64,000 nt of DNA from a candidate division WWE3 bacterium (lineage in GTDB: Bacteria; Patescibacteriota; WWE3; JAUXAW01), in assembly GCA_030619715.1 (NCBI GenBank), contig JAUXAW010000001.1, positions 3,195-67,194 on the forward strand, read 5' to 3'. Every line of letters begins with the position of its first letter. The first letter of the stretch is position 1. This document shows positions 1-11,630 of this stretch, in pieces. The notes beneath the pieces were generated by a model that did not search any database, was not told the origin of the DNA, and saw only the letters and a program-made list of their open reading frames with translations. Both the position numbers and the translations under genes were made by a program.

Positions 1-950
1 GAAACATCTTTCCACGGAATGATTCGATATTGGTAATTGGGTTTCTCAGAAAAAGCATCCTTTACCGCTGGGAGATGCTCAAACCAACCCCGATACTTTT
101 TGCCAATTAGATTCTCACCTTTAATCTTCGTAACTTCGGTTGCGTTGGGCGCAGTTTTTTTCATGTAATCTTCTGTGGAATAAAAGATGCCCGCCTCGGT
201 TTTAAATCTCACATATTCGAGTTTTGGGTTAACCGCAATTGCGGTATTAGCCGGTAGAGTCCACGGCGTTGTTGTCCAAACTAATAAATACTCATTCTTA
301 GCATCTAGTAATTGATACTCCACCGTAATCGCTGTGTGTGTGATCTCTTGGTACTCCTCACTCAAAATTTCGTGCTGGGAGATAGCCGTTCCGCAACGGG
401 GGCACCAAGGGACCGAATCGCGACCTTTGTAAAGATTTCCATCCCGCCAAACTTTTTTCAAAAAATGCCAAATTGCGTAGTTGTTCTCGTCGCTCATCGT
501 GTAATAGTCGTTCCCCCAATCCATAAAATATCCCAATCTTTTTGATTGTTCCGTCTGAATCTTGGCAAAATGCAAAGTATGTTTTTTACATTCTTCGACA
601 AACTTAGCAATACCATACCTCTCAATATCCTTTTTTGATTTAAAACCCAATTTCTTTTCGACCTCGACCTCAACCCAAAGCCCCTGGTTATCAAAACCGT
701 TTTGAAATCTCTCGCGAAATCCCTGCATACTCTTGTAGCGTTGATATAGATCTTTGAGAGTCCGACCCCAGGCGTGATGAACACCCATTGGGTTGTTAGC
801 GGTGATAGGACCATCGAGGAAGGAAAAGCGCTTCTTTGAGGCCTTGTTCTTTTCAAGATATTTTGGAAGAATCTTATTCTTCTCCCAAAACCGTAAAATC
901 TTTTCTTCAAGTTTGGGAAAATCAACTTTAGAGTCGACGGGCTTGAACAT
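1..950 (-). CDS. ileS: Isoleucyl-tRNA synthetase, archaeal/eukaryote-like type, N-terminal ~316 aa. The gene runs off the window start.
   Basis: Manual translation of the minus strand from the ATG at 950 gives MFKPVDSKVDFPKLEEKILRFWEKNKIL...FSFLDGPITANNPMGVHHAWGRTLKDLYQRYKSMQGF...WCPRCGTAISQHE. This is the class I aaRS HIGH-type region and IleRS-like Zn motif. There is no stop codon down to position 1. The tracked ORFs 312-545 and 494-925 are other frames. Confidence 0.75.
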   Translation of the reverse strand, partial: MFKPVDSKVDFPKLEEKILRFWEKNKILPKYLEKNKASKKRFSFLDGPITANNPMGVHHAWGRTLKDLYQRYKSMQGFRERFQNGFDNQGLWVEVEVEKKLGFKSKKDIERYGIAKFVEECKKHTLHFAKIQTEQSKRLGYFMDWGNDYYTMSDENNYAIWHFLKKVWRDGNLYKGRDSVPWCPRCGTAISQHEILSEEYQEITHTAITVEYQLLDAKNEYLLVWTTTPWTLPANTAIAVNPKLEYVRFKTEAGIFYSTEDYMKKTAPNATEVTKIKGENLIGKKYRGWFEHLPAVKDAFSEKPNYQYRIIPWKDV

Positions 951-1026
951 TGTGAGGTCAGTATAACAAGAAGAGGCGATCACCGCAAGATTTTTCTTTG
1001 CGTTGACCGCCTGCTCTCTCCAAAAA

Positions 1027-1611
1027 CTATTCTTCCTCCTTCCGCCGGGGCACCTGGTGGCAGTGGCGGCAGCGGGCTTCGTAGGTCTCGTCGGCGCCGA
1101 CCATGATCACCGGATCGTCGTAGTTGGCTGGCTGACCGTTAATCAACCGCTGGCTACGGCTAGCCGGCGCACCACAGACGACGCAGATGGCCTGCAGCTT
1201 GTCCACCTTCTCCGCTATGGCCATCAGCAAGGGCATCGGACCGAAGGGCTCACCGCGAAAGTCCATATCCAGTCCAGCAACGACAACACGCACACCACCG
1301 TCTGCTAGCAGATTGCAAACATCGGCGAGAGTGTGCTCGAAGAAGTGCCCCTCGTCAATGAACACCACCTCGATGTCCGGCCCGACCAACGCTGTTATCT
1401 GCCAAACATCTCCCACTATAACAGCTTTGTGACGCTCTCCCCTATGAGAACCCACACTCTCTGCTGTATAGCGGGTGTCGCGGCTGTGATTGAATACCAT
1501 TACCTGCTGCCGGGCAATCTCGGCTCGCCTGATACGACGGAGTAGCTCCTCCGTCTTGCCGCTGAACATGCTGCCGCAGATGACCTCGATCCAACCTCTC
1601 TTTTGAGACAT
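1027..1611 (-). CDS. tdk: Thymidine kinase (TK1 family). The ATG at 1611 is preferred; the track start at 1632 is a TTG.
   Basis: [17 protein letters not shown]-loop. C-terminal Zn ribbon CVVCG...CRHCH. RBS GGAGG 7-9 nt upstream of the ATG at 1611. GC-rich. Confidence 0.85.
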
Positions 1612-1628
1612 ACTCTCCCTCCTCTCCT

Positions 1629-2051
1629 TCAACGATGGTAGCCAAGTCTTCGAACAGCATCAAGGAAAGCACTCTCCTCAGGTCCAATCGGCGACTCGCC
1701 TTCGAGAAGAGCTAGAATCCTTTCAGGAGAAGGGCCCCGCGCTTCAGTTAGGAGCAGTTCGTCTCCGAACTTCTGCCCAAGGGGTCCCTCCCTGAAAGCC
1801 CGCTCCAAAAGAACCAGAGCATCGCTCTCCTTGAGTCCGATCGGAGACCCTCTCGCCAGCAATTCCAGCAATTCTCCGAGGGTAAAACGGGTCGTCTCTC
1901 TCTGAAGCTTTCTGATATGACGCGCTGCCTGACCTGCTGAAGCAAACCCACCCTCAACAAGCTTCAGATTTTTTGTTTCCTCAAAAGTCTCCCTGAGCAT
2001 TACAAAACCATCCTCCGAACCCGTGGCTGACACCGCTATAACCCACTCCAT
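1629..2051 (-). CDS. Hypothetical protein, GC-rich. The likely start is the ATG at 2051, preceded by AGGAGG.
   Basis: [22 protein letters not shown]..., about 140 aa. It lies immediately upstream of tdk on the same strand, with a strong RBS. No recognisable domain. Confidence 0.5.
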
Positions 2052-2183
2052 CCTAACTCCCCTCCTTTCTTTCTTTGTTAAATTTTGATGGTGCTGCGAA
2101 TAAAACAAAAGCCCCTTGCGGGGCAGTTTGAGACAAACCTAGTCAACCATAATTTCTAAATTCTGTAAAGACCTAATTTTGAC

Positions 2184-2218
2184 AACTTGACAAATCTGTT
2201 ACACTTTGGTAGTTTTTA
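2184..2218 (+). promoter_or_regulatory. Candidate sigma70-like promoter (TTGACA-17-TAGTTT) in a divergent intergenic region.
   Basis: The TTGACA motif is duplicated (ttgacaacttgacaa), with a -10-like element 17 nt downstream. It lies upstream of the 2337 lipoprotein ORF. Confidence 0.3.
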
Positions 2219-2336
2219 ATACAGGTTAAAGAGGATCAGCAGATTCACAACACCACAAAACACGGGAAGGAGGCAGACCAGGTCTTTTGTGTTACACCTG
2301 GGTTAGGCACAGAATCGAAGAAAGGAGGTAACCCAC

Positions 2337-2543
2337 ATGTCACGCCGAAGGGCACTAGGGCTTCTATTGCTCATCGTTATACTCTTGGCAGGAGGCTGCG
2401 CACCGCCACTGCCCGGCACACAGGGAAGATGTGAAGCCGATTGCCAAGATTTAGGCCACGAGTTCTGGGAATTCGAGCGGGGCCTTGCTGGGAGCGACTG
2501 CTGGTGCAAACCAGCAAACAAGGACCCCATCCAGGTGTGGTAG
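2337..2543 (+). CDS. Small Cys-rich lipoprotein, 68 aa.
   Basis: RBS GGAGG then ATG. Signal peptide with a lipobox-like LLAGGC. Four more Cys in the mature part. Confidence 0.5.
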   Translation: MSRRRALGLLLLIVILLAGGCAPPLPGTQGRCEADCQDLGHEFWEFERGLAGSDCWCKPANKDPIQVW

Positions 2544-2618
2544 CCCCAAAATGGCACCATCTCAATTCAAACCGTCCAGCAGTAGCTGGACCAAAACACT
2601 CCGAAGGAGGTGAGAGAA

Positions 2619-2882
2619 ATGGCGGAACCTGTAGGTGCCAAAGTCGTCACTGAAGATGGCAGGGTCTACACCGGAAACATCGTCGAACCCGCGTCTCCAG
2701 GGCTGCTTACACTAGAAAGGTGTGCTCTGGTAATACCGGGTGGTGGATGGTGTTCCGAAGGAAAACGGTCCATCCCGATCCACAATGTCCGCCACGTGGA
2801 TCATGGAGAGTTCACATGGGGAATGGGCGCTAAGAGCTGGTTTAAGGATGGGAAGCCCATCATCGATCCCATCCTTACATAA
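2619..2882 (+). CDS. Hypothetical small protein, ~87 aa.
   Basis: RBS GGAGG 8 nt upstream of the ATG at 2619. GC-rich. Followed by a terminator. Confidence 0.45.
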   Translation: MAEPVGAKVVTEDGRVYTGNIVEPASPGLLTLERCALVIPGGGWCSEGKRSIPIHNVRHVDHGEFTWGMGAKSWFKDGKPIIDPILT

Positions 2883-2891
2883 CCAGCCAAA

Positions 2892-2939
2892 AGCCGCAGA
2901 GTGGTAACACCGAAGTTGCTCTGCGGCTACTTTCTTTCA
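2892..2939 (+). terminator. Rho-independent terminator.
   Basis: 10 bp stem AGCCGCAGAG/CTCTGCGGCT with a 17 nt loop, followed by tactttctttc. Confidence 0.6.
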
Positions 2940-2943
2940 AAAC

Positions 2944-3522
2944 CTACTGACCCCACTTTAACGATCGCCCTTCATCAAGAAGCATCAGAAGCATGATTCC
3001 GTAGTTGGCTAAATCCAGAGCCGTGTCCGGCAGTTTCTCGTCGGCAACTTTTCTTTTGTAACTTTTTTTGGAAAGCTGGGTGAGACGAAAGTATTTGTCC
3101 CCGATCCGGACTCCCAGTCCGGGAATCCCCCAAAAGCGAAAGGCATTCCCGTAATCGGCATTTTTACGCCGGAAAAGACTGGTCATTTCTCTGACCAGCT
3201 TCTTAAAAGCTTTTGGTTCGGAAAGACCCAGAAGACTGGGCCTAAAGAAGTTAAGATGAAAGTTGGTAGCATTGATAACTAAGGATTCTGTCGTGCTCTG
3301 AATCCGCTTGCGTAACTTCTGATCCTGTGGTCTCTTTTGCGCCTGGATAAGAAGTTCGACCAGCTCAAAATAGTCTTTCCTCAAATTAGCAGGAGGGTCG
3401 GTAGGATCGTAACTCAAAAGCTGATCCTGACTTAGTGACAAAATCCGTTTCGCCGCAACGGCAAAGTGAGCGGCATTCTCCTTATTGGAAGCCCTCATTA
3501 GTTTTTTTAAATCTTTCATCAT
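2944..3522 (-). CDS. DUF1599-like (nucleotide-modification-associated domain-like) protein, 192 aa.
   Basis: The motif KNADYGNAFRFWG...RIGDKYFRLTQL resembles the K-x-x-DYG-x-A-W/F-R ... D-K/Q-I/Y-F signature I associate with DUF1599. This recollection is unverified. Confidence 0.4.
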   Translation of the reverse strand: MMKDLKKLMRASNKENAAHFAVAAKRILSLSQDQLLSYDPTDPPANLRKDYFELVELLIQAQKRPQDQKLRKRIQSTTESLVINATNFHLNFFRPSLLGLSEPKAFKKLVREMTSLFRRKNADYGNAFRFWGIPGLGVRIGDKYFRLTQLSKKSYKRKVADEKLPDTALDLANYGIMLLMLLDEGRSLKWGQ

Positions 3523-3754
3523 TATGTTTATCTTAGTCTAACGGTAGCTACTGTAATTTTTTGGGGATCAAAGGGGACAACCCGACCGTCTCTTTTTCTA
3601 ATTTTTTCTGGGGTTTGGACAGGAGTTTTGGACACAGAAAACAACCCCGGGGGCAGCGAGGAGTGAGGAAATTCTTTCAACAATGTAAAGAGTATACTAT
3701 GTGTCTCCTCAATGTCAAGCTCCAAAGTAGAGAGGTGCAGAGAAAAATCTGTAA

Positions 3755-4810
3755 CTAAGCGGGAAGAAGGGTCTGACCAGTCCGGAGGGCTCGGGCAACC
3801 TTGTTGGGTATAGTTAGATCTAACTCCCAAAAATTTTGCTGGCGGGTGATCGGTTGGACCGGACCCGAACCACTCTGGCCACTCAGCCATGGCAAAAGAA
3901 TTTTTTCCGCGACCCATTTACTCGCCGCCGGGGCCACTGACTTTGAAATTAAGACCTGCGCCTCGAGAGGCCTTGGCCGAACCGACAAAATATTCAGAAT
4001 CTTGTCAAGCGGATAGGTCATTAGCGCGGCGTGTTCCAAAAGGTCAAACCAGCGATTCTCCTCCTGCCAAACCATCAGCCGTCGAGAAAGTACCGAACCG
4101 GTGTACCAATCTTTCTGGCTGATTATTTTTGGCACCACCGAACGAAACTTCATCTCCAAATCCCGTTTCTCCGCCCAGGCCACCGGATTAACCGCTTCTT
4201 TGGAAAAAACAGGATGCCCGAAGTCATAGCCTTCTGTTTCAGACTTCAACCAATCACCAACTTTATAATCGGAGGGCCAAACGGTCTCCGGGACAGAGGG
4301 GGGTTTCCTGGTCATACTGGTATGGATGATGTGAACACGTGGCCTTCTTTGAGGAATACCGATGTAACGTAAATCCAACCGTACAAGTAAGGTTGTCACG
4401 TTGTCCCAGACATCATAAAGTTGATTGTGAAAATTTGTCAAAAGCTTTCGTCCTAATGTCCAAGATAGAGGGCCTGTTTCCCACCAGATAACTTGGGCGC
4501 GAGAAGCTCCTGCTACTTTAACAAGATCAAGGATTTCCGGAAAAGTTTCTGGATCCTCGTGGGACTTCTTATCAAAGAAACTTAAACTTAAGTGGCTGAA
4601 CCTAGAACAAGGCGGGTTCCCTACAACAATATCTGCTTTAGGAAGACTGTCCGGCATCTGGGAAACTTCTTTGCTCGGCAAACCCAAGGACTGTGCCCCG
4701 CGCAATCCGGGTTTCCAAACTTCCTCACTTTCGAGAACCAGCAAACCCGCCTGTTGGAGACCTAGTAAAAATCCTCCTAAATAACAATGAGTTCCAATAA
4801 CTTTAAGCAT
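3755..4810 (-). CDS. Divergent DNA C5-cytosine methyltransferase-fold protein, 351 aa.
   Basis: Motif IV GNPPCSRFS (PC nucleophile). Motif VI-like WWETG (ENV equivalent). Motif VIII QRRPR. Motif I is degenerate (IGTHCYLGGFLLGLQQAG, no FxGxG). The start is 6 bp after the stop of the upstream kinase gene. Confidence 0.6.
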   Translation of the reverse strand: MLKVIGTHCYLGGFLLGLQQAGLLVLESEEVWKPGLRGAQSLGLPSKEVSQMPDSLPKADIVVGNPPCSRFSHLSLSFFDKKSHEDPETFPEILDLVKVAGASRAQVIWWETGPLSWTLGRKLLTNFHNQLYDVWDNVTTLLVRLDLRYIGIPQRRPRVHIIHTSMTRKPPSVPETVWPSDYKVGDWLKSETEGYDFGHPVFSKEAVNPVAWAEKRDLEMKFRSVVPKIISQKDWYTGSVLSRRLMVWQEENRWFDLLEHAALMTYPLDKILNILSVRPRPLEAQVLISKSVAPAASKWVAEKILLPWLSGQSGSGPVQPITRQQNFWELDLTIPNKVARALRTGQTLLPA

Positions 4811-4816
4811 AAGAGT

Positions 4817-5734
4817 TTAAAGAGCCGCATCAATCTTTTTGAGAATAAACTTGAAATCGGAAGGTTTGTGAACGAAGTCGAGCTCATCAACAGGGATAGT
4901 GACTGTAGAACAAAGGTCAAAACTCCCTACCCACTGATCATGTTTTTGGTTGAGGTGCTCCAAATATTCGGCGGTAATATTCTTTTCGTAAACTCTGCCT
5001 CGTTCTTTGATTCTCTTCAAAAGCTCGGGGACGGGCATCTTGAGATAAATAACAAGGTCAGGGACTTGAATGAGGTTTTTAACTGAGGAATAAAGACTTT
5101 GTAGGGTTCGATAATCTAACCCGTCTAGAATGCCTTGCTCGTATAAACTGGTGGCAAAGATAGAGAACTGCTCATGGACGCTGCGGTCCTGAAAAACGGG
5201 GATGATGCTTTTGTCAATTTCCGAATGGATTCTAAAACTTTCGGCGATGAAGTAAAGCTGGCTATGCAGCGCCCATCTCCCCATATCCTGGTAGTAACGC
5301 GGAAGGTAGGGGTTCCCAAGATCATCTATCAAGAAAAACTTACCGTTGTAATACTTAGCTAGCTTTTTAACCAAAACTGTTTTCCCCGCACCAATATTTC
5401 CCGTAACCACTACGTGGAAGAAGCCCTCCCGGGCCCGGACGGCTCCTTTGGTAATTGTCTTTTTAATCTCGGCCAGTTCCCTCTCAACCGCCGTCAGTTT
5501 TGAAGGCAGCGTATAATCTTTTTCCATGTTCTCGGGAAGGAAAAAGGAGAGAGGTTTATTTAGGACTTTGGCAATCTTCTCCAGCGATTCCAGCGAAAGG
5601 CGAAACTGGCCGCTTTCTAACTGGCTAATAGTTGGACCAGCGTAGTTTGTTTTTTCTCCCAAAATTTCCTGGGAAATTCCTAACTCTTCGCGAGCCTTTC
5701 TAACTTGTTTTCCGACGAATTTTTTAATATTCAT
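4817..5734 (-). CDS. XRE-family HTH domain fused to a deoxynucleoside kinase (dCK/dGK/dNK family).
   Basis: N-terminal QVRKAREELGISQEILGEK...TISQLESG (HTH_XRE). P-loop VVTGNIGAGKT. DRS/ERS-like motif QDRSVHEQFSIF. RBS AAGGAG. Confidence 0.7.
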   Translation of the reverse strand: MNIKKFVGKQVRKAREELGISQEILGEKTNYAGPTISQLESGQFRLSLESLEKIAKVLNKPLSFFLPENMEKDYTLPSKLTAVERELAEIKKTITKGAVRAREGFFHVVVTGNIGAGKTVLVKKLAKYYNGKFFLIDDLGNPYLPRYYQDMGRWALHSQLYFIAESFRIHSEIDKSIIPVFQDRSVHEQFSIFATSLYEQGILDGLDYRTLQSLYSSVKNLIQVPDLVIYLKMPVPELLKRIKERGRVYEKNITAEYLEHLNQKHDQWVGSFDLCSTVTIPVDELDFVHKPSDFKFILKKIDAAL

Positions 5735-6012
5735 AAAACAACTCCTTTGATAAGTCTTGATATTTGTAAGATCAGAGTTAGATTGCAGCTAAGTATAGCA
5801 ATCCTATCTGTGAAGGTCAAGGGTTAGACAAAATGGGGGGAGGTTAGAAGTTGATTATGTTAAATTTCACCCAAAGCTTTATGAATATATCTTCTGACTT
5901 GAGGTAATCTTGTTGTTTCAAGTCGTCTTTAGCAGAAGGTAGGTTTCGGTAGCGTGTTCGATCAAAACATGACTTTGGGCATAAAAAATCTTCCGGGGGC
6001 AGCGGAGAATAT

Positions 6013-6091
6013 CAGTAACTCAATAATTCAGTAACATCAGTAAAGACAAGAAGAACCTGCTATTGATTTACTGTCTTTACTGTCTTCACTG
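6013..6091. repeat. CAGTAA/TTACTG repeat element downstream of ftsZ. It includes an 11 bp inverted repeat CAGTAAAGACA/TGTCTTTACTG.
   Basis: CAGTAA at 6013, 6029 and 6038. TTACTG at 6068 and 6077. A related copy lies at 9672-9717. Confidence 0.6.
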
Positions 6092-6094
6092 GCT

Positions 6095-7186
6095 TTACTT
6101 CTTCCGAAGGAAGGTTGGGATTTCGTACTTCTCTTCTTCCTCTTTCATCTTCCCCCGAAATTCTTCCCTAAATCCTTCAACCCTTTCCTCAGACGGGGGT
6201 CGGCCTTCGAAGCCGGTGGCGATGACCGTAATTTTCAGTTGGTCGACCATCGAGTCGTCGATCGTCGCCCCGAAGATAATGTTAGCATCGGGGTCGGCCG
6301 CCTGGGCAATAATCTTTGCCGCCTGGTCCACCTCGTGCATCGTCAAATCCGGGCCGCCGATGATATTAAAAAGTATACCTTTGGCTCCTTCGATATCAAG
6401 CTCCAAAAGGGGCGAGGAAATGGCCGCTTTCGCGGCTTCTTCGGCGCGACGCTCACCGGAACTGCGGCCAATCCCCATCAGGGCCGAACCGGCGTCGGTC
6501 ATAATCGTCCGCACATCGGCAAAGTCCACATTAATCAACCCCGGCATCACAATTAAATCGGAAACTCCCTGAACGCCCTGTCCCAGAACGCCGTCGGCAA
6601 CCTTAAAGGCGTCCAGAATTGACATTTTCTTATCCACAATTTCCAAAAGCTTCTGGTTGGGGATAGTAATTAGGGCGTCAACCTTATCCCTCAAATTAAC
6701 AACCCCTTCCTCGGCCTGTTGCATCCTCTTGCGTCCTTCAAACTCAAAGGGCTTGGTCACCACTCCGATCGTCAATGCTCCCAAACTCTTGGAAATTCCG
6801 GCGATGATTGGCGAGGCGCCGGTCCCCGTTCCCCCACCCAAACCGGCGGTCAAAAAGACCATGTCCGACCCCTCCAAAATCGCCTGTATTCTCTCGGTCG
6901 ATTCCTCCGCCGCCTTGCGGCCAATCTCGGGATTGGCCCCCGAACCCAAACCACCAGTCAGCTGCTCGCCGATCTGAATCTTGACCGGGGCGTTGTTGAT
7001 CGAAAGCGCCTGGGCGTCGGTGTTGACCGCCACAAACTCCACTCCTTGAATCTGCTGGAGGTCAATCATGGAGTTGAGGGCGTTACCACCCCCACCCCCA
7101 ATGCCGAGGACTTTGATGTTTGCAAATTTTTCAACTTCCGGTTTGATTAACATAATATGATGAAAAGGGATTCGGGGCAGAATCAA
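6095..7186 (-). CDS. ftsZ: Cell division GTPase FtsZ.
   Basis: GGGTGTG tubulin signature; FEFEGRKR. Confidence 0.95.
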
Positions 7187-7201
7187 AAAGGATTAATCCT
7201 T

Positions 7202-7642
7202 CTAAATCCTCTTTGTATCCCTCTTAATTCTATTCCTGAAGGTAAACACTTGTAACGGTCTGCTCCCAAAATTTACCAGAAAACCTATACTTAATCCAGA
7301 CGCTCTTAGATAAGAAACCGTTTGTGATCTAAACTGTGAGTGCGAAGTTTCCACCGCCTTAACCTCAACAACAATCTTTCCATCAACTACCAAGTCAATT
7401 CGATGATCCCCAACCTTCCCTCCTTTAAAATGAACCGGCACATGTACTTCCTCTCGAAAGCGAATCCGATGTTCCTTGAGGCACTTTTTAATCGCTTCAA
7501 CATAAACCGACTCTTTAAAGCCGGGACCTAGCTCGTTATAAACCTCAAAGAAAATCCCCCTTAACTTATAGGTGAGCTCCGGATACAACAACTCCTTTTC
7601 ATTGCTGATCCCTCTTGATCCTTCGTCATCCTTCTTAATCAT
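7202..7642 (-). CDS. GxxExxY family protein (PD-(D/E)xK-like).
   Basis: LTYKLRGIFFEVYNELGPGFKESVYVEAI matches the GxxExxY signature. Confidence 0.7.
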   Translation of the reverse strand: MIKKDDEGSRGISNEKELLYPELTYKLRGIFFEVYNELGPGFKESVYVEAIKKCLKEHRIRFREEVHVPVHFKGGKVGDHRIDLVVDGKIVVEVKAVETSHSQFRSQTVSYLRASGLSIGFLVNFGSRPLQVFTFRNRIKRDTKRI

Positions 7643-7644
7643 AT

Positions 7645-8880
7645 TCAGGGCAGATAGGATTTAATCCAGTTGACCATTCTTCCCAAAAGCTCAAACACAC
7701 GTCCCCGAGCGGCGCCTAAACTGATGCGGCGTTCGGGCTGCAATCTCGAACCGTACAAAAGAAGGCCAATCGAGGCAGCAAAAGCCGGGCCATTAACCTC
7801 TTCAATCAGACCCGAAGCCCCGCGAGGTTGGCCAATCCGCACCGGCATCTTCAAAACCTGTTTGGCGGCCTCGGCAATCCCCGCCGTCTCCGCCGCTCCC
7901 CCGCAGATAATAATTCCCGCCGGTAGCTTCCCGGCAAAACCAGACTTCTTGACCTCCAATGCCACCAGCGAGAAAATCTCCTGCAGTCGTGCTTTGATAA
8001 TTTCGTTGAGCGTTTTTTTTGACAACGTTTTCGTCTCCAGTCCCAAATCAGAAATGTCAAGCTGATTCTCTTCTTTCTGGTTGCCTAGCGCCGCCACCTG
8101 CAGTTTTTCCTTGATCTTCCCCGCATCCTCCAAACTGGTGCGCAAGCCGATGGCCAAATCGTTGGTGAGATTCTGACCGCCGATCGGTAGAACCGTGGCG
8201 TAGGCCGGACTGCTGTCCTCAAAAACCAAAATGTCCGTCGTTCCCCCGCCGATATCGACCAAAACCGCGCCCAACTCCTTTTCCGTGTCCGTCAAAACCG
8301 CTTCGGCCGCCGCCACCCCCCCAAAAACCAGATCCTCCACGTCTACCCCGACCTGCTGGACGCACTTGACCAAGTTCCTCATCACCGTCGTGGCTCCGGA
8401 GATAATGTTCGTTTCTACCTCGAGGCGAATCCCACTCATCCCCACCGGGTCGCGCACTCCATCCTGCGAATCAACAATAAAACCGCGGGGGATGACGTGA
8501 ATGATCTCCCGCGACGAGGGAATCGAAATCGCCTGCGCCGCCTCGGTCACCCGAGCCACATCCGACGGCGAAATCTCACCTTCCTGATGGGCGACGGCGA
8601 CGACTCCGTGGGAGTTAAGCGAGGAGATATGCGTTCCGTCAACCAAACAGTAGGCCGAGGAAACGGCGTAACCAGCCATCCGCTCGGCGCTCTCGAGGGA
8701 CGCGGCAATCGCCTCGACCGCCTCGTCGATGTCAACCACCACTCCTTTCTTGATCCCTTTTGAAGGTACGGTTGAAACCCCAATGACCGAAATCTTCCCC
8801 TCGGGGGACAGAGTAGCAATGATCGTTGTTATCTTCGCGGAACCAATATCAAGTCCAGCAATTATCCTATCTTTGGCCAT
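7645..8880 (-). CDS. ftsA: Cell division protein FtsA.
   Basis: Actin-like ATPase motifs DIGSAKITT and DIGGGTTD. Confidence 0.95.
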   Translation of the reverse strand: MAKDRIIAGLDIGSAKITTIIATLSPEGKISVIGVSTVPSKGIKKGVVVDIDEAVEAIAASLESAERMAGYAVSSAYCLVDGTHISSLNSHGVVAVAHQEGEISPSDVARVTEAAQAISIPSSREIIHVIPRGFIVDSQDGVRDPVGMSGIRLEVETNIISGATTVMRNLVKCVQQVGVDVEDLVFGGVAAAEAVLTDTEKELGAVLVDIGGGTTDILVFEDSSPAYATVLPIGGQNLTNDLAIGLRTSLEDAGKIKEKLQVAALGNQKEENQLDISDLGLETKTLSKKTLNEIIKARLQEIFSLVALEVKKSGFAGKLPAGIIICGGAAETAGIAEAAKQVLKMPVRIGQPRGASGLIEEVNGPAFAASIGLLLYGSRLQPERRISLGAARGRVFELLGRMVNWIKSYLP

Positions 8881-8923
8881 TAGGGAGCTCCAATTTTAAT
8901 TTTACATCAAAGTAGGCTTAGGG

Positions 8924-9658
8924 TCAATACCTAACAACAGGTTGTTCGTACCGTAAATCGACTTGCTTAAGACTCTTGCCTTCAATTTTATACTTTTGCA
9001 AGACCGTTTGTAAAGACCGAATTTGGCCTGCAAGATCTTTTTCGCGGGAAAAGAATATCGTCAATTCCTCGTCACCTTTGACTTCGATTCCTGTCTGGCC
9101 GGCAAATTTGACCGAAGAAACCCAGGGCTCTTCAAGAAGAATCAATAAGACAATATTCGCGTCGATCGTCTGTCCCAGTGCCAATTCCGAACCCAACTCC
9201 AGAACAACTGTTTTCAGGCCTTGCCACTCCGGCTGGACTTCGGAGTAGATAACGCCTTCTTTGTCAACAAGAAATTCCAAGCCCCCAGGACGGGAAATCT
9301 TAGCAATCGGCTTTCTTTCGCTAATCTGAACGACGACCGTCTGCGAATACTTCTTTTTAAAAACCACATCTCCCACCGGCAGAAACTTTTTTCTTATTTC
9401 ACCGGCGATCGCCTGTTCTTTAAGAAGAAATATCCTCTGCCCAATCGCTGACCTCTTGGCCTGCTCACACCATCTTTTTTCGTCGGCGACCGAAGTTTTG
9501 TCTTTAACCTGACAGTTGACCTTCTTAATGATGAAAAAATCGGACTTGAAGACAAGATAGAACCCACCAACCAGGAGTCCAACTCCAAGGAGAACAAGAA
9601 ACAATCTTTTAAACCACCGCCGCGCTACTCGAACTTTGGGTTTCCACAATTTAACCAT
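8924..9658 (-). CDS. ftsQ: FtsQ/DivIB-like cell division protein. The start at 9658 (MVKLWKPK...) is preferred over the track start at 9751.
   Basis: Single TM segment followed by a POTRA-like region. Position between murG and ftsA. Confidence 0.7.
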   Translation of the reverse strand: MVKLWKPKVRVARRWFKRLFLVLLGVGLLVGGFYLVFKSDFFIIKKVNCQVKDKTSVADEKRWCEQAKRSAIGQRIFLLKEQAIAGEIRKKFLPVGDVVFKKKYSQTVVVQISERKPIAKISRPGGLEFLVDKEGVIYSEVQPEWQGLKTVVLELGSELALGQTIDANIVLLILLEEPWVSSVKFAGQTGIEVKGDEELTIFFSREKDLAGQIRSLQTVLQKYKIEGKSLKQVDLRYEQPVVRY

Positions 9659-9671
9659 CAAAACTATTCTA

Positions 9672-9717
9672 CAGTAAAGACAGTAATTCAGTAAAGACAG
9701 TAACCCAATAAGAACCT
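9672..9717. repeat. Tandem CAGTAAAGACAGTAA x2 plus AAGAACCT element upstream of ftsQ.
   Basis: cagtaaagacagtaattcagtaaagacagtaacccaataagaacct. A related element lies at 6029-6058. Confidence 0.6.
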
Positions 9718-9893
9718 TTCGCTTCGCCAAGTCTGACTTGGCTTCGCTCAAGAACCTTGCATTTGAGCATAGTCTAACGACTATTAGCTCAAAAGTAGGC
9801 CTTCGGCTTATTTAACTCCGGTACTTGACTTCTGTCCTGTATTATGTTAAAATTAAGAAGTAAAATGTGGTCGCAGAGCTTAATCTGCCAAAT

Positions 9894-9922
9894 TTGACAA
9901 ACGGAACAAAAACTGTTATAAT
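9894..9922 (+). promoter_or_regulatory. Perfect consensus sigma70 promoter TTGACA-17-TATAAT.
   Basis: TTGACA at 9894-9899, exactly 17 nt spacer, TATAAT at 9917-9922, then TTAAGG. This is the same cassette as at 26836 and 26904. Confidence 0.6.
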
Positions 9923-9928
9923 TAAGGT

Positions 9929-10021
9929 ATAAGCTCAAAAAGAAGCTTAAAAAAAGGCAATCAGCACTTGGTCTCGATATTCTTGTTATATCAAGGTCAA
10001 CCGCGGGTTGCCTTTATTTTT
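9929..10021 (+). ncRNA. Candidate short transcript or attenuator: promoter-proximal hairpins ending in an intrinsic terminator.
   Basis: Predicted TSS ~9929. Hairpin CAACC-gcg-GGTTG (9998-10010) followed by CCTTTATTTTT. An upstream imperfect hairpin sits around 9966-9994. Confidence 0.25.
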
Positions 10022-10057
10022 AGGCAATAAAACCAAATTCAAAGCGAGGAGGCAAAA

Positions 10058-10153
10058 ATGGCAAAGTACAAAACACCGCCGAGGTCCAAAAAGCGGCCGA
10101 CGGAGAACAGGGCGCTCGGTAGCATTCGCCGTCGGCAGCAACGACGCTCCTGA
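10058..10153 (+). CDS. Candidate 31-aa highly basic peptide (MAKYKTPPRSKKRPTENRALGSIRRRQQRRS).
   Basis: GAGGAGG RBS 5 nt upstream of the ATG. A second RBS+ATG mini-ORF (10 aa) starts at 10197. Could be leader peptides. Confidence 0.25.
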   Translation: MAKYKTPPRSKKRPTENRALGSIRRRQQRRS

Positions 10154-10691
10154 CCCAACACTTGGCCAGGAGCCAACAAAAACTAAAGGAGGTCACAATG
10201 CACAAAATGTCCGAGTTTCACCAACCTTAGCCGAAAGGCGAGGAACCCTCCTGAAACAAAAAACATCCCTGAATAGGGGAGCGGGTTGCAAGTAGGGAGG
10301 GAAAATAAAGGGCCTGGGCAGCCCTTCGGAGGGAAAGTTCGTCGGACAACGATGTCCAACAACTTTCCCTCCAATCCACCTGCTCTCAACCAACCGTTGA
10401 GGTCGGATGGATTCAACAACAATTTAACAACGAGGTGACACACTTGTGTGTTACCGCAGTTGACAAAAGACCTGTGGGTTGTAAGACGCGGAAAGTTCGG
10501 AAAAACATCGATTTCCGAATTTCCCTTGTCTTATTCACCCTTCATAAAGTTCAAAAAAAGAAAGGGGGCAAAATAAGACCAAAATGTACCACCTGACTCC
10601 GGACACCTGAACCCGCAAGGGCAGGCAACAGGAGGAGTCAGGGCCCACGCCCCCGTCCTTCGGGACACGGGCACGGGCAAGAAGGAGAGAA
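10154..10691 (+). promoter_or_regulatory. Long GC-rich structured 5' leader upstream of the cold-shock-domain gene.
   Basis: Nested hairpin GGGAAAGTT...AACTTTCCC at 10337-10375. Hairpin CTGACTCC...GGAGTCAG around 10594-10644. Hairpin GGTGACACAC-tt-GTGTGTTACC around 10433-10456. CspA-type genes typically carry long regulatory leaders. Confidence 0.3.
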
Positions 10692-11300
10692 ATGGCTAGT
10701 AGAATTAAGTTTTTCAACGGTACTCGCGGCTTCGGCTTCATCAAGCGCGAGGGGGAGCGAGACATCTTCTTCCACATCTCCGATGTGGTGAGCGGTTACA
10801 AACCGCAAGAAGGTGACTCGGTCGAGTTCGAGGTTGGTCAGGGCAAGAAGGGGCCCGCCGCCAGGAACATCCGCCCCGCCTCAGCCAATTCCGGTGAGGC
10901 GACCATGAAGGTCGTGATGGAGGGCGACGCGGTAACGAGCTCTGGCTCGTGCACCATCATCTGCGGCCTCAAAGGGGAACCGCTGCCAGCACTCAGTGCC
11001 CCCATGCGGGGAACTGGTAAGGGTAGCTACGCCACCCTGCGAGTAGGGAAGCACATCCAGGTGAAGGGTTCCTGGTACAGAGGCGAACCCGCCCAGATTA
11101 CCGTGGAAGAGGTTACTCCTGTCAAGGACGGAGAGCCGATTCGCGAGCTACTCTGGAAGGGAATTGCCGAGGAACTACCGGAGGTCTATGCCTATCTGGA
11201 GAAGGCAGTGCGCGCTGCGGATGAAAAAGCCCAGTGCTACCACTGCCACCACCTGCACTTTCCGGTGGCAAACGCTGGGCAGCTCGGCGCCAGAGTGTAG
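10692..11300 (+). CDS. Cold-shock-domain protein with a ~135 aa C-terminal extension (Cys/His-rich tail).
   Basis: N-terminus KFFNGTRGFGFIKREGERDIFFHISDV...GDSVEFEV is a CspA-like CSD. C-terminus carries QCYHCHHLH. GC about 60%. Confidence 0.75.
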   Translation: MASRIKFFNGTRGFGFIKREGERDIFFHISDVVSGYKPQEGDSVEFEVGQGKKGPAARNIRPASANSGEATMKVVMEGDAVTSSGSCTIICGLKGEPLPALSAPMRGTGKGSYATLRVGKHIQVKGSWYRGEPAQITVEEVTPVKDGEPIRELLWKGIAEELPEVYAYLEKAVRAADEKAQCYHCHHLHFPVANAGQLGARV

Positions 11301-11312
11301 AACACGGGATCA

Positions 11313-11342
11313 GAGGCGCCAGTATCCGCCTCTCTTTGCAGG
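11313..11342 (+). terminator. Candidate terminator hairpin after the csd gene.
   Basis: GAGGCG-ccagtatc-CGCCTC followed by TCTTTG. Weak T-run. Confidence 0.3.
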
Positions 11343-11630
11343 CAAAAGTTCGTCAGCAGTTTACGAACTCCCCGACCTGCGAAGTATTACAAGGGGATGA
11401 AAAGCACCAAGCACGTCTGGTCTATCAGATGCCCGATGAATAGGGTTGGTAGAAGACGTGCTACAGAGGGAGTCTGAAAGGACTTTGCTTTCAGACCGAT
11501 GCGCGCCCATGTTGCGTGTCCAACACTGATACCAGAACTAGTATCAGACCGTTGCTCCTCTCTCCAAGCTCATTAGTCTAAAAGGGTTAGTGAGTTTAGG
11601 GAGGGGAAATAGAAAAATAACTCAGTCATA

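What the first reader, a model, noticed from the sequence alone, without database searches (positions are those of the whole stretch)
3528..4810. C5-MTase-fold protein with a degenerate SAM motif I and a possible frameshifted C-terminus
Motif I reads IGTHCYLGGFLLGL instead of FxGxGG. The catalytic PC, the ENV-like Glu and QxRxR are retained. The annotated ORF ends after the variable region without obvious motifs IX/X. A second reading frame, 3528-3917, overlaps its 3' end by ~160 bp. This could mean a frameshift (pseudogenisation or programmed), or simply a truncated enzyme. Either way it is not a canonical Dcm.
Basis: seen in the sequence. Interest (0 to 1): 0.5.

Follow-up and report, generated by a model that had tools for sequence, protein, structure and literature searches.

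The report
Intact, non-canonical cytosine-C5 transferase gene
The gene is not frameshifted or truncated: it encodes a complete enzyme of the DNA cytosine-5 methyltransferase fold from a small uncharacterised family with a remodelled cofactor pocket, which sits beside deoxycytidine-nucleotide genes in uncultured bacteria and phages and so may do something other than plain DNA methylation.

Summary
ORF 3755-4810(-) (351 aa) is intact. The motif I reading (HCYLGG for FxGxGG), the PC cysteine, the ENV-type Glu and QxRxR are all there. Motifs IX (R253..E259..P267) and X (S289-K290-S291-V292) are also present in the same frame. This is shown by a profile alignment to M.HhaI (99.9%), an AlphaFold model (pLDDT 92) that matches M.HhaI/HaeIII over its full length, and 32 full-length homologues. 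The overlapping ORF 3528-3917 is spurious: it is absent in an 87%-identical (nucleotide) relative, whose similarity stops at the MTase stop codon. Its tail carries a 25-aa ATP-cone-like remnant, not an MTase C-terminus.

The protein belongs to a sharply bounded family of about 50 clusters, found in uncultured bacteria and siphophage contigs. The signature is HxYxGG / NPPCSRFS / WWE(T)GP / QxRPRxH / SKSV. The motif X Asn next to the transferred methyl is almost always Lys. Arg at this position makes CmoX use carboxy-SAM, and N374K did the same in M.MpeI.

Family genes sit next to HTH-deoxynucleoside kinase, UDG-like, NTP-pyrophosphatase-like and dCMP deaminase genes. The ThyA homologues nearby all carry the dCMP-specific Asp.

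Most likely it is a DNA cytosine-C5 transferase. Its cofactor and exact substrate are open.

The parts
3755..4810 (-). Intact 351-aa gene for a non-canonical enzyme of the cytosine-C5 methyltransferase fold (the finding itself)
   Evidence: PF00145 at 31.1 bits over residues 3-209. 32 full-length homologues. AF2 pLDDT 91.9. Foldseek top hits are M.HhaI and HaeIII, E 5e-15, ~340 columns. hhalign against HhaI plus outgroup gives 99.9% over residues 1-308.
4769..4789 (-). Motif I variant H8-C-Y10-L-G12-G13-F14 (HhaI F18-A-G20-L-G22-G23-F24)
   Evidence: H8, Y10 and G12 are nearly invariant in the family.
4595..4618 (-). Motif IV N65-P-P-C68-S-R70-F-S72. C68 is the catalytic nucleophile and R70 is family-specific.
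   Evidence: Invariant in alignment A1. C68 aligns with HhaI C81. The outgroup has NPPCA(A/P)WS.
4469..4486 (-). Motif VI W109-W-E111-T-G-P114 (HhaI ENV; E111=E119)
4331..4351 (-). Motif VIII Q154-R-R156-P-R158-V-H160 (HhaI Q161-K-R163-E-R165)
4010..4054 (-). Motif IX R253-WFDLL-E259-HAALMTY-P267 (HhaI R272..E278..P286)
   Evidence: R253 and E259 are invariant in A1.
3929..3946 (-). Motif X S289-K290-S291-V292-A-P294 (HhaI G303-N304-S305-V306). K290 replaces the Asn that lies next to the transferred group.
   Evidence: K290 is invariant in A1. The role of this position in CmoX (R350) and M.MpeI N374K is taken from PMC12783734.
3528..3917 (-). Spurious overlapping ORF (129 aa), not a gene. Its first 54 codons are an alternative frame of the MTase 3' end and the rest is intergenic.
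   Evidence: Closed after 12 codons in L012. Similarity to L012 ends at the MTase stop. The open stretch is not conserved in 9 of 10 relatives.
3531..3605 (-). ATP-cone-like N-terminal remnant (EKIRKRDGRVVPFDPQKITVATVRLR*), 25 aa followed by a stop
   Evidence: PF03477 positions 2-21 of 88, E 1.5e-4, 22.7 bits against GA 25.8. Weak RNR N-terminus hits. It is not part of the downstream DUF1599 gene, whose 34 homologues mostly run 182-196 aa and carry no ATP-cone.
3691..3718 (-). Promoter-like site TTGACA-16-TATACT in the 227-nt spacer, upstream of the DUF1599 gene
   Evidence: 11 of 12 matches. Consensus match only.
4817..5734 (-). HTH_3 + deoxynucleoside kinase fusion (305 aa). It ends 6 nt before the MTase-like start, so it is probably co-transcribed.
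   Evidence: PF01712 at 3e-44 and PF01381 at 2.5e-12. The same fusion lies directly beside the MTase-like gene in L012 and L042, and one gene away (divergent strand) in L008.
5792..5820 (-). Promoter-like site TTGACC-17-TATACT (with TG) upstream of the dNK/MTase-like pair
   Evidence: Consensus match only.
2944..3522 (-). DUF1599 ('nucleotide modification associated domain 1') protein, 192 aa, all-alpha, with a conserved KNxDYG motif
   Evidence: PF07659 at 2.6e-7. phrog_1485 at 1.6e-19. Homologues. AF2 pLDDT 85.7. No informative fold match.
1027..1632 (-). Thymidine kinase, part of the same deoxynucleoside-salvage neighbourhood
   Evidence: PF00265 at 1.2e-52

Best explanation
ORF 3755-4810(-) is a complete, selected gene. 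It encodes a two-domain enzyme of the DNA cytosine-C5 methyltransferase fold. It belongs to a small, sharply delimited and so far uncharacterised family found in uncultured bacteria and in siphophage contigs.

Shown here:
- All ten motif positions lie in one frame.
- The catalytic set is kept: Cys68 is the nucleophile that attacks C6 of a flipped-out cytosine, Glu111 contacts N3/N4, and Arg156/Arg158 contact O2 and phosphate.
- The ribose-binding Glu30 and the Gly-Gly of motif I are conserved.

Inferred:
- The enzyme acts on cytosine in DNA and transfers a group from an adenosyl-sulfonium cofactor (SAM or a SAM derivative) to C5.
- Its cofactor pocket is remodelled. F18 becomes His, G20 becomes Tyr, there is no conserved motif III acid, and the motif X Asn beside the transferred methyl is almost always Lys. 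Plain methylation is therefore not assured.
- The gene is probably co-transcribed with an HTH-deoxynucleoside kinase.
- Across the family it is embedded in deoxycytidine/uracil nucleotide genes, so it works together with a modified-cytosine or pyrimidine-salvage pathway rather than as half of a restriction-modification pair.
For: Intactness:
- 32 full-length homologues.
- AF2 pLDDT 91.9 and pTM 0.92.
- Foldseek against PDB: the top 14 hits are M.HhaI or HaeIII, with ~340 aligned columns.
- hhalign against an HhaI-containing profile: 99.94%, E 4e-37, residues 1-308.
- Codon-position bias of 21/24/89 and 79 synonymous against 37 non-synonymous codons relative to L012.
- An identical second assembly.

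Family boundary and signature:
- hmmsearch of 1.84 billion representatives gives 54 hits below 1e-30, then scores fall from ~212 bits (last full-length family member) to ~121 bits (one intermediate) and ~90 bits (outgroup).

Cofactor-pocket lead:
- K290 aligns with HhaI N304 in two independent alignments.
- In SpCmoX the same position is R350, which binds the carboxymethyl group of Cx-SAM. The engineered M.MpeI N374K does likewise (PMC12783734).
- Phage C5-MT clades III and IV, among those with divergent motifs IX/X, gave no detectable methylation in E. coli (PMC8256090).

Context:
- The bacterial loci are window, L012, L008, L042, L001, L039, L040 and L011.
- They carry HTH-dNK, UDG-like, dUTPase_2, PRA-PH or DUF1599, dCMP deaminase, DCD, cytidylate kinase, TK or ThyA-like genes within a few genes of the MTase-like gene.
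- The ThyA homologues near family genes at 15 loci (plus one next to outgroup member P0082, L044), from both phage and bacterial contigs, all have Asp at the E. coli ThyA N177 / T4 gp42 D179 position.
Against: - No biochemical data exist for any family member.
- No cultured organism or phage carries one. Only two uncultured phage records were found.
- DNA as substrate is inferred only from the retained two-domain fold and the best structural neighbours.
- The unusually well conserved 'variable' region across 30%-identical members would also fit a non-sequence-specific or non-DNA substrate.
- The window itself has no ThyA-like, UDG-like or dCMP deaminase gene in 64 kb.
- The phage contexts may simply reflect the usual clustering of MTases with replication and nucleotide genes, and the phage loci may represent only a few lineages.
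- For the Cx-SAM idea: motif IV is NPPC, not the SPPC used to define CmoX. No CmoA homologue occurs in any locus or in the window. Some relatives have Gln at the K290 position.
Confidence: 0.65

Rival explanations
1. It is an ordinary SAM-dependent orphan DNA m5C methyltransferase. The odd motifs I and X are neutral clade-specific variants. The neighbouring UDG-like glycosylase plays the Vsr-like role of repairing deamination products, and the nucleotide genes are incidental.
For: - The full C5-MTase fold and catalytic residues are present.
- The same H/Y-x-F/Y-x-G-G-F motif I and a basic or Gln motif X residue occur in a much larger outgroup of MTase-like proteins that otherwise look canonical, with ESV, PPC, QxRxR and R..E..FP.
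- Glu30, the SAM ribose ligand, is nearly invariant.
- The PADLOC hits are generic type II MTase models.
Against: - The Asn-to-Lys change is at the position that controls which group is transferred in CmoX and M.MpeI N374K.
- Phage C5-MT clades III and IV, among those with divergent motifs IX/X, were inactive with SAM in E. coli.
- No restriction endonuclease or Vsr is nearby.
- The association with dCMP-type ThyA homologues, NTP-pyrophosphatases and dNK recurs in differently arranged loci.
- If the neighbouring ThyA homologues replace most cytosine by a 5-substituted form, a plain C5-methylase would have few targets in those genomes.
Confidence: 0.35
2. It is a cytosine-C5 transferase of DNA that does not transfer a methyl group. 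One possibility is a carboxy-SAM-type (CmoX-like) carboxymethyltransferase. Another is an enzyme that uses Cys-C6 covalent catalysis on 5-hydroxymethyl- or 5-hydroxy-cytosine made by the neighbouring ThyA homologues. Either way it would be a step in a cytosine hypermodification pathway.
For: - K290 sits at the HhaI N304 / CmoX R350 / M.MpeI N374K position and is nearly invariant across the family (48 of about 50 members; Arg in P0047, Gln in P0051).
- R70 next to the catalytic Cys is family-specific and nearly invariant.
- The ThyA homologues near family genes at 15 loci, plus one next to outgroup member P0082 (L044), are all of the dCMP-specific Asp type.
- Such enzymes make 5hm-dCMP or 5m-dCMP (established knowledge) or 5ho-dCMP (PMC13326640).
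- The phage loci also carry NTP-pyrophosphatase, dCMP deaminase and P-loop kinase genes, plus conserved unknown genes between the MTase-like and ThyA-like genes.
Against: - No CmoA is present anywhere.
- Motif IV is NPPC, not SPPC.
- The family profile matches the CmoX chain 8yf3 only at E 0.29.
- The covalent-catalysis idea rests on in vitro side reactions of canonical MTases recalled from memory, not on anything tested here.
- The window itself lacks a ThyA-like gene.
Confidence: 0.2
3. It acts on free deoxycytidine nucleotides (dCMP or dCTP) rather than on DNA. For example it could make 5-methyl-dCMP, which dCMP deaminase converts to dTMP, as part of pyrimidine salvage in a reduced-genome bacterium.
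For: - The gene is probably in an operon with deoxynucleoside kinase and has TK, dUTPase_2/PRA-PH/DUF1599, dCMP deaminase, DCD, cytidylate kinase and adenylate kinase as neighbours.
- In L011 the gene sits between secY and adk.
- The region corresponding to the target-recognition domain is conserved across the whole family instead of variable.
Against: - The complete two-domain DNA-MTase architecture, including the small domain and a catalytic loop of normal length, is retained.
- No C5-MTase-fold enzyme is known to me to use mononucleotides.
- Loci that already have a dCMP-specific ThyA homologue would make such an activity redundant.
Confidence: 0.12
4. It is a frameshifted or truncated pseudogene whose C-terminus continues in ORF 3528-3917.
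For: A 129-codon ORF overlaps the 3' end by 163 nt.
Against: - Motifs IX and X are in frame.
- Homologues are full-length and the model is confident through residue ~340.
- The alternative frame is closed in L012, and conservation stops at the stop codon.
- The ORF shows no MTase similarity.
- A second assembly is identical.
Confidence: 0.02

Closest known systems
Bacterial type II DNA (cytosine-5) methyltransferases, M.HhaI / M.HaeIII (PF00145)
   Same: - Same two-domain fold over the full length.
- Same motif order I-X.
- Catalytic PC Cys, motif VI Glu, QxRxR, motif IX R..E..P and the ribose-binding motif II Glu are all kept.
   Different: - Motif I is HxYxGG instead of FxGxGG.
- There is no conserved motif III acid.
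- Motif IV is PPCSRFS instead of PCQxFS.
- Motif VI is ETG instead of ENV.
- Motif X is SKSV instead of GN(S/A)V.
- There is a family-specific ~40-aa C-terminal extension after motif X (res 310-351, conserved 'W.LDL').
- No partner restriction enzyme is present.
- It scores only 17.8 bits on TIGR00675, whose cut-off is 100.65.
SpCmoX, the phage DNA cytosine C5-carboxymethyltransferase (PDB 8YF3), and the engineered M.MpeI N374K
   Same: It is a C5-MTase fold with a basic residue replacing the motif X Asn (HhaI N304). That position contacts the transferred group (PMC12783734). Here it is K290.
   Different: - The residue is Lys, not Arg.
- Motif IV is NPPC, not SPPC.
- No CmoA (Cx-SAM synthase) or CmoY ligase is nearby.
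- Sequence relationship is only remote: the family profile matches 8yf3 at E 0.29.
Metavirome C5-MT clades III-VI of Burke et al. 2021 (PMC8256090)
   Same: These are phage C5-MT homologues with a conserved catalytic Cys but divergent motifs IX and X and a divergent target-recognition domain. Clades III and IV showed no detectable methylation in E. coli, and others showed only low activity.
   Different: Those clades are linked to TET-like dioxygenases, and none is seen here.
T4-type deoxycytidylate modification pathway (dCTPase gp56, dCMP hydroxymethylase gp42, dNMP kinase gp1, dCMP deaminase)
   Same: The gene neighbourhoods of the family contain the same kinds of enzymes: NTP-pyrophosphatase-like proteins, ThyA homologues with the gp42-type Asp, nucleoside or nucleotide kinases and dCMP deaminase.
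   Different: T4 has no C5-MTase-fold component. Here the pathway genes also occur on bacterial contigs, and the window itself lacks the ThyA-like gene.
dcm-vsr, or M.MthTI-Mig type pairs (a C5-MTase with a repair enzyme for deaminated 5mC)
   Same: In L001 and L042 the MTase-like gene is immediately followed by a UDG-superfamily gene, and one lies a few genes away in L012, L008 and L039.
   Different: The partner is a divergent Fe-S UDG, with 'SQAPS' instead of the GEAPG-type motif A, and its specificity is unknown. It is absent from the window.

Membership tests
DNA (cytosine-5) methyltransferase superfamily (PF00145 fold) | Two-domain fold with motifs I, IV, VI, VIII, IX and X in canonical order in one polypeptide | tested here: met
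   AF2 pLDDT 91.9. Foldseek to M.HhaI and HaeIII at E ~5e-15 over 340 columns. hhalign 99.9% over residues 1-308. PF00145 at 31.1 bits, above GA 22.
DNA (cytosine-5) methyltransferase superfamily (PF00145 fold) | Catalytic Pro-Cys (motif IV), motif VI Glu and motif VIII QxRxR | tested here: met
   C68, E111, R156 and R158 are invariant across 116 aligned sequences that include HhaI.
Canonical SAM-dependent Dcm/M.HhaI-type enzymes | Motif I FxGxGG | tested here: not met
   The motif is H8-C-Y10-L-G-G. F18 becomes H and G20 becomes Y, and this is conserved family-wide.
Canonical SAM-dependent Dcm/M.HhaI-type enzymes | Motif X G-N-(S/A)-V, with the Asn beside the SAM methyl | tested here: not met
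   The motif is S289-K290-S291-V292. The Lys is invariant in alignment A1 (23 sequences) and present in 48 of about 50 family members.
Canonical SAM-dependent Dcm/M.HhaI-type enzymes | Curated equivalog or superfamily score (TIGR00675 dcm) | tested here: not met
   17.8 bits against a cut-off of 100.65
Canonical SAM-dependent Dcm/M.HhaI-type enzymes | Methyl transfer from SAM to C5 of cytosine in duplex DNA at a defined sequence | not testable with these tools
   This needs expression plus LC-MS or EM-seq. There is no CpG or GpC depletion in the window, which is uninformative.
Restriction-modification system (type II) | An adjacent cognate restriction endonuclease | tested here: not met
   No nuclease gene lies next to the gene in the window or in any bacterial locus. 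PADLOC gives only generic MTase_II hits.
CmoX (Cx-SAM-dependent DNA C5-carboxymethyltransferase) | Arg at the HhaI N304 position (R350), binding the carboxymethyl group | tested here: inconclusive
   The position is basic but is Lys (K290), as in the engineered M.MpeI N374K.
CmoX (Cx-SAM-dependent DNA C5-carboxymethyltransferase) | SPPC motif IV | tested here: not met
   The motif is NPPC throughout the family. The criterion is from PMC12783734.
CmoX (Cx-SAM-dependent DNA C5-carboxymethyltransferase) | Genomic association with CmoA (Cx-SAM synthase) and/or the CmoY ligase | tested here: not met
The methyltransferase beside the phage member in L043 is FkbM-type.
DNMT2-type tRNA m5C methyltransferases | Closest structural and sequence relatives are DNMT2, with a tRNA-specific CFT-type motif | tested here: not met
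   DNMT2 structures rank below M.HhaI and HaeIII (ranks 15-23). The neighbours are DNA and deoxynucleotide genes. The CFT motif was judged absent by eye only, and I recall it from memory.
The unnamed family defined here (HxYxGG / NPPCSRFS / WWE(T/N/S)GP / QxRPRxH / (S/A)K(S/G)V) | All signature residues present, and a full-length score above the gap that separates the family from other C5-MTases | tested here: met
   The window protein carries every signature element. Scores fall from ~212 bits (last full-length family member) to ~121 bits (one intermediate) and ~90 bits (outgroup).

The most novel reading that the evidence does not exclude
The family is not a methylase. It would be the DNA-level (or nucleotide-level) step of a previously undescribed cytosine modification pathway that operates in chromosomes of uncultured, probably reduced-genome, bacteria as well as in phages.

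In this reading the Lys at the N304 position and the remodelled pocket select either a non-methyl donor of the carboxy-SAM type, or a 5-hydroxymethyl- or 5-hydroxy-cytosine substrate. That substrate would be supplied by the co-occurring dCMP-specific ThyA homologues, NTP-pyrophosphatases and kinases.
Probability: 0.2. Interest if true: 0.85.

Novelty: new variant of a known kind. Interest (0 to 1): 0.5.

Why it matters
As an annotation question the finding is settled. The gene is intact and should not be flagged as a pseudogene.

The family it belongs to has not been characterised, as far as I could find. It keeps the covalent-catalysis machinery of C5-MTases but changes two things. One is the residue that, in the two known cases (natural CmoX and engineered M.MpeI N374K), decides which group is transferred to cytosine. 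The other is the classic SAM loop.

The family also travels with deoxycytidylate-modifying ThyA homologues, pyrophosphatases, kinases and an unusual UDG. This holds both in phages and on bacterial contigs, where in one case it is inserted in the secY-adk operon.

If the enzyme makes something other than 5mC, two consequences follow. It would add a new DNA cytosine modification and a possible tool enzyme. It would also suggest that some uncultured bacteria carry modified cytosine as a housekeeping feature. If it is only a plain methylase, the result is a useful catalogue entry and nothing more.

Tried and rejected
- **Frameshift or truncation.** Rejected.
- **ATP-cone fragment as N-terminus of the DUF1599 gene.** Rejected. 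It is in a different frame with stops between, and the 34 DUF1599 homologues mostly run 182-196 aa without an ATP-cone.
- **CmoX membership.** No CmoA was found, motif IV is NPPC rather than SPPC, and similarity to 8yf3 is remote.
- **Cultured phage relatives.** None were found. Only two uncultured records carry a family member. The best cultured hits to an outgroup member (Klebsiella phage Miro and similar) are canonical MTases with FxGxGG-type motif I and GNSV.
- **GTDB species genomes.** Only one locus was found, labelled as an uncultured gammaproteobacterial MAG. The host phylum of the window was not established. 'CPR-like' is my impression from gene content, not a test.
- **Rfam scan of 1-12000.** Only a chance-level CRISPR-DR hit. 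No tRNA genes were found.
- **Defence-system models.** Only generic MTase and HTH hits.
- **Di- and tetranucleotide statistics.** No CpG or GpC depletion. ACGT, GATC and CATG are mildly under-represented. This says nothing about the enzyme's target.
- **Literature searches.** Searches for DUF1599/NMAD1, and for a dNK / thymidylate synthase link in Patescibacteria, gave nothing relevant. The Iyer et al. 2013 paper that defined NMAD domains is not held.
Full report
**1. The observation**

ORF 3755..4810 on the minus strand encodes 351 aa beginning MLKVIGTHCYLGGFLLGL. ORF 3528..3917(-) (129 aa) overlaps its 3' end by 163 nt. Pfam places only residues 3-209 in PF00145 (31.1 bits, E 2e-7). The curated dcm model gives 17.8 bits against a cut-off of 100.65.

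**2. There is no frameshift and no truncation**

- A search of 5.8 billion proteins returned 32 relatives. Nearly all are 330-385 aa, cover ~90-100% of the query and go down to 28% identity.
- Their alignment shows conserved blocks well beyond residue 209. Examples are NRWFDLLEHAALMTYP and SKSVAP.
- I compared two profiles: this family, and a profile containing M.HhaI plus the nearest other MTase-like proteins. The alignment covers residues 1-308 against HhaI 10-322 with 99.94% probability (E 4e-37). The mapping is:

| Window residue(s) | M.HhaI residue(s) | Motif |
|---|---|---|
| H8, Y10, G12-G13 | F18, G20, G22-G23 | I |
| E30 | E40 | II |
| C68 | C81 | IV |
| E111 | E119 | VI |
| R156, R158 | R163, R165 | VIII |
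| R253..E259..P267 | R272..E278..P286 | IX |
| S289-K290-S291-V292 | G303-N304-S305-V306 | X |

- A separate 116-sequence MAFFT alignment gives the same motif X register.
- An AlphaFold2 model built from the family alignment has mean pLDDT 91.9 and pTM 0.92. Its best PDB matches are M.HhaI and M.HaeIII over ~340 columns, at E 5e-15 to 1e-12.
- Against the closest relative with DNA available (L012; 90% aa, 87% nt), 89 of 134 substitutions are at third codon positions of the MTase frame. Synonymous codon changes outnumber non-synonymous ones 79 to 37.
- Nucleotide similarity between the two loci ends exactly at the MTase stop codon.
- In L012 the alternative frame is closed after 12 codons. Among ten relatives, the long open stretch across the MTase 3' end is not conserved.
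- A second assembly of the locus (L013, Logan, SRR14872668) is identical to window 767-6053.
- ORF 3528-3917 has no MTase similarity. Its only signal is an ATP-cone N-terminus in its last ~25 residues (PF03477 positions 2-21, E 1.5e-4, below the gathering score).
- That fragment lies in the 227-nt spacer downstream of a good promoter-like site (TTGACA-16-TATACT). It is followed by a stop and then, in another frame, by the DUF1599 gene. The 34 DUF1599 homologues mostly run 182-196 aa and lack an ATP-cone. I read the fragment as an orphan remnant of the 5' end of an ATP-cone gene (RNR or NrdR type).

**3. What the protein is**

An exhaustive profile search of 1.84 billion cluster representatives found 54 proteins below 1e-30. 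Scores then fall from ~212 bits (last full-length family member) to ~121 bits (one intermediate) and ~90 bits (outgroup).

The family signature, tabulated, is:
- H-x-Y-x-G-G-(F/M)
- E..W
- (G/A/S)NPPCSRFS
- WWE(T/N/S)GP
- Q-x-R-P-R-x-H
- R244
- R..E..P
- (S/A)-K-(S/G)-V-(S/A)-P

The nearest outgroup supplies at least 60 of the 150 hits listed; 888 proteins in all scored below E 0.001, most of them presumably ordinary C5-MTases. It shares the unusual motif I ((H/Y/N)-x-(F/Y)-A-G-G-F) and a basic or Gln residue in motif X ((A/G)(R/K/Q)(G/A)V-x-PP). Otherwise it looks conventional, with NPPCA(A/P)WS and (W/F)ESV.

The 'degenerate' motif I is therefore a conserved trait of a whole branch of the superfamily, not decay. 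The ribose-binding Glu (E30) and the Gly-Gly are kept, which argues that an adenosyl cofactor is still bound. No conserved motif III acid is present.

**4. A lead on the chemistry**

In the crystal structure of the phage enzyme SpCmoX, HhaI Asn304 is replaced by Arg350. That Arg contacts the carboxymethyl group of carboxy-SAM. The wild-type enzyme uses only Cx-SAM. This mirrors the engineered M.MpeI N374K (PMC12783734).

In the present family the same position is Lys in 48 of about 50 members (Arg in P0047, Gln in P0051). Independently, Burke et al. found that phage C5-MT clades III-VI differ specifically in motifs IX and X, and that methylation could not be detected for clades III and IV in E. 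coli (PMC8256090).

Several points argue against filing the family as CmoX:
- Motif IV is NPPC, not SPPC.
- The family profile matches 8yf3 only at E 0.29.
- No CmoA homologue occurs in any of the loci or in the 64-kb window.
- The methyltransferase beside one phage member is FkbM-type.

The Lys is a reason to doubt plain methyl transfer. It does not show what is transferred.

**5. Context**

In the window, the gene follows an HTH_3-deoxynucleoside kinase fusion by 6 nt, with a promoter-like site upstream of the pair. It is followed by a DUF1599 ('nucleotide modification associated domain 1') gene and, further on, by thymidine kinase.

Seven other bacterial-type loci have different gene orders but show the same theme:

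| Locus | Arrangement around the MTase-like gene (MT) |
|---|---|
| L012 | UDG-like, HTH-dNK, MT |
| L008 | UDG-like ... HTH-dNK, dUTPase_2, divergent MT |
| L042 | dUTPase_2, HTH-dNK, MT, then a 735-aa UDG-MtrA-ThyA-like fusion, then dCMP deaminase |
| L001 | MT, UDG-like |
| L039 | MT, 205-aa unknown, UDG4, UDG-like ... DCD, HAD, GCV_T, ThyA-like |
| L040 | MT ... 453-aa weak ThyA-like, the same 205-aa unknown, cytidylate kinase |
| L011 | secY, MT, tandem PRA-PH-like, adk |

The UDG-like partner is a divergent Fe-S UDG with 'SQAPS' in place of the family-4 motif A.

The 30-35%-identical phage branch lies in replication modules. These contain Prim-Pol/D5 or SNF2 helicases, PolA, DUF932 and Pam3_gp32/gp34 homologues. 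They also hold a ThyA homologue, usually a dCMP deaminase, and an NTP-pyrophosphatase (PRA-PH or dUTPase_2 type).

The ThyA homologue is the most widely shared neighbour, present in 13 of about 20 loci with enough flank. I aligned them with E. coli ThyA and T4 gp42. The ThyA homologues near family genes at 15 loci, from both phage and bacterial contigs, and the one next to the outgroup member P0082 (L044), all have Asp at the position of E. coli N177 / T4 D179.

By established knowledge of this enzyme family, Asn at that position specifies dUMP and Asp specifies dCMP. I recall the N177D and D179N specificity-switch experiments from memory. These neighbours are therefore deoxycytidylate-modifying enzymes, not thymidylate synthases. 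Such enzymes can be methylases, hydroxymethylases or, as shown recently, 5-hydroxy-dCMP synthases (PMC13326640).

The caveats are:
- The window itself contains no ThyA-like, UDG-like or deaminase gene.
- The phage loci probably represent only a few lineages.
- Phage MTases often sit in such modules anyway.

**6. Mechanism and its rivals**

The best-supported reading is a DNA cytosine-C5 transferase that works by the classical mechanism.
- Shown: the fold, and the Cys68, Glu111 and Arg156/158 set.
- Inferred: base flipping, attack at C6, and transfer to C5 from an adenosyl-sulfonium donor.

Within that reading I give:
- about 0.35 to plain SAM-dependent methylation, and
- about 0.2 to a non-methyl donor or a 5-substituted cytosine substrate.

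A mononucleotide substrate (dCMP or dCTP) gets about 0.12. It is favoured by the kinase operon and the unusually conserved 'variable' region. It is disfavoured by the fully retained two-domain DNA-MTase architecture. An RNA (DNMT2-like) substrate was not examined beyond the fold ranking and is not excluded. A pseudogene is effectively excluded.

**7. Comparison with what is known, and verdict**

The protein is a member of the C5-MTase superfamily by fold and catalytic motifs. It fails the canonical Dcm/M.HhaI tests at motif I, at motif X and on the curated dcm score. It also fails two of three CmoX criteria.

I found no description of this family or of its neighbourhood in the searchable literature. 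No cultured carrier was found.

- As a frameshift candidate the finding is ordinary and refuted.
- As an enzyme it is a new variant of a known kind, with a concrete and testable reason to suspect unusual chemistry.

Interest is 0.5.

Noticed in passing
window 3531-3605 (-): There is a 25-aa stretch (EKIRKRDGRVVPFDPQKITVATVRLR, then a stop) that matches the very N-terminus of the ATP-cone domain of ribonucleotide reductases / NrdR. It lies in the spacer between the MTase-like and DUF1599 genes, downstream of a TTGACA-16-TATACT site. It looks like the orphaned 5' end of a lost ATP-cone gene.
   Followed up: partly
window 4817-5734 (-); also L012 987-1904, L042 969-1886, L008 4151-5059: A conserved fusion of an Xre-type HTH_3 domain to a deoxynucleoside kinase (305 aa) lies next to or one gene from the MTase-like gene. 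A DNA-binding domain on a salvage kinase is unusual. It might couple nucleoside sensing to transcription.
   Followed up: partly
L042 2975-5182 (+): This is a 735-aa triple fusion. It combines a divergent family-4-like UDG, an MtrA-like (corrinoid methyl-transfer subunit) domain and an archaeal-type ThyA-like domain carrying the dCMP-type Asp. It sits directly downstream of the MTase-like gene and upstream of dCMP deaminase.
   Followed up: partly
L004, L019, L021-L025, L029, L031, L033, L034, L037, L039, L040, L042, L043, L044 (ThyA-like ORFs listed): The ThyA homologues near family genes at 15 loci, plus one next to outgroup member P0082 (L044), all have Asp at the E. coli N177 / T4 gp42 D179 position. 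They are therefore deoxycytidylate-specific, not thymidylate synthases.
   Followed up: yes
L001 9074-9661, L012 271-867, L008 3082-3699, L039 7591-8193, L042 2975-~3600: These form a distinct UDG-superfamily subgroup. They have 'SQAPS' in place of the GEAPG-type motif A, an HPSP/HPSG motif B and the four Fe-S cysteines. They score only 22-44 bits on family-4 models. L039 also has a canonical family-4 UDG right beside it.
   Followed up: partly
L011 3649-5398: The MTase-like gene and a tandem-repeat PRA-PH/MazG-like pyrophosphatase (228 aa) are inserted between secY and adk in the ribosomal-protein (spc) operon. This suggests housekeeping-level expression.
   Followed up: no
L039 6326-6943 and L040 4420-5037: A conserved 205-aa protein (66% identical between the two loci) has no Pfam, NCBIfam or PADLOC hit. 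In both loci it lies near the MTase-like gene.
   Followed up: partly
[not shown]
   Followed up: yes
window 7202-7642 (-): A PD-(D/E)XK nuclease family gene (PDDEXK_3, E 1e-32) is inserted between ftsA (7645-8880) and ftsZ (6095-7186) in the dcw cluster.
   Followed up: no
window ~1000-2900: This is a GC-rich patch (0.52-0.60 against ~0.43 on either side). It covers thymidine kinase, a 159-aa ORF with no hits, and small plus-strand ORFs, one of which has a lipoprotein-like signal (2337-2543). It may be of different origin from its surroundings.
   Followed up: no
L022 4907-6001, 6992-7909, 8031-8786 and homologues in L021, L033, L034, L036, L037: Three conserved phage proteins without Pfam hits (about 365, 306 and 252 aa) directly flank the MTase-like gene or lie between it and the dCMP-type ThyA homologue. 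They are candidates for further steps of a modification pathway.
   Followed up: partly
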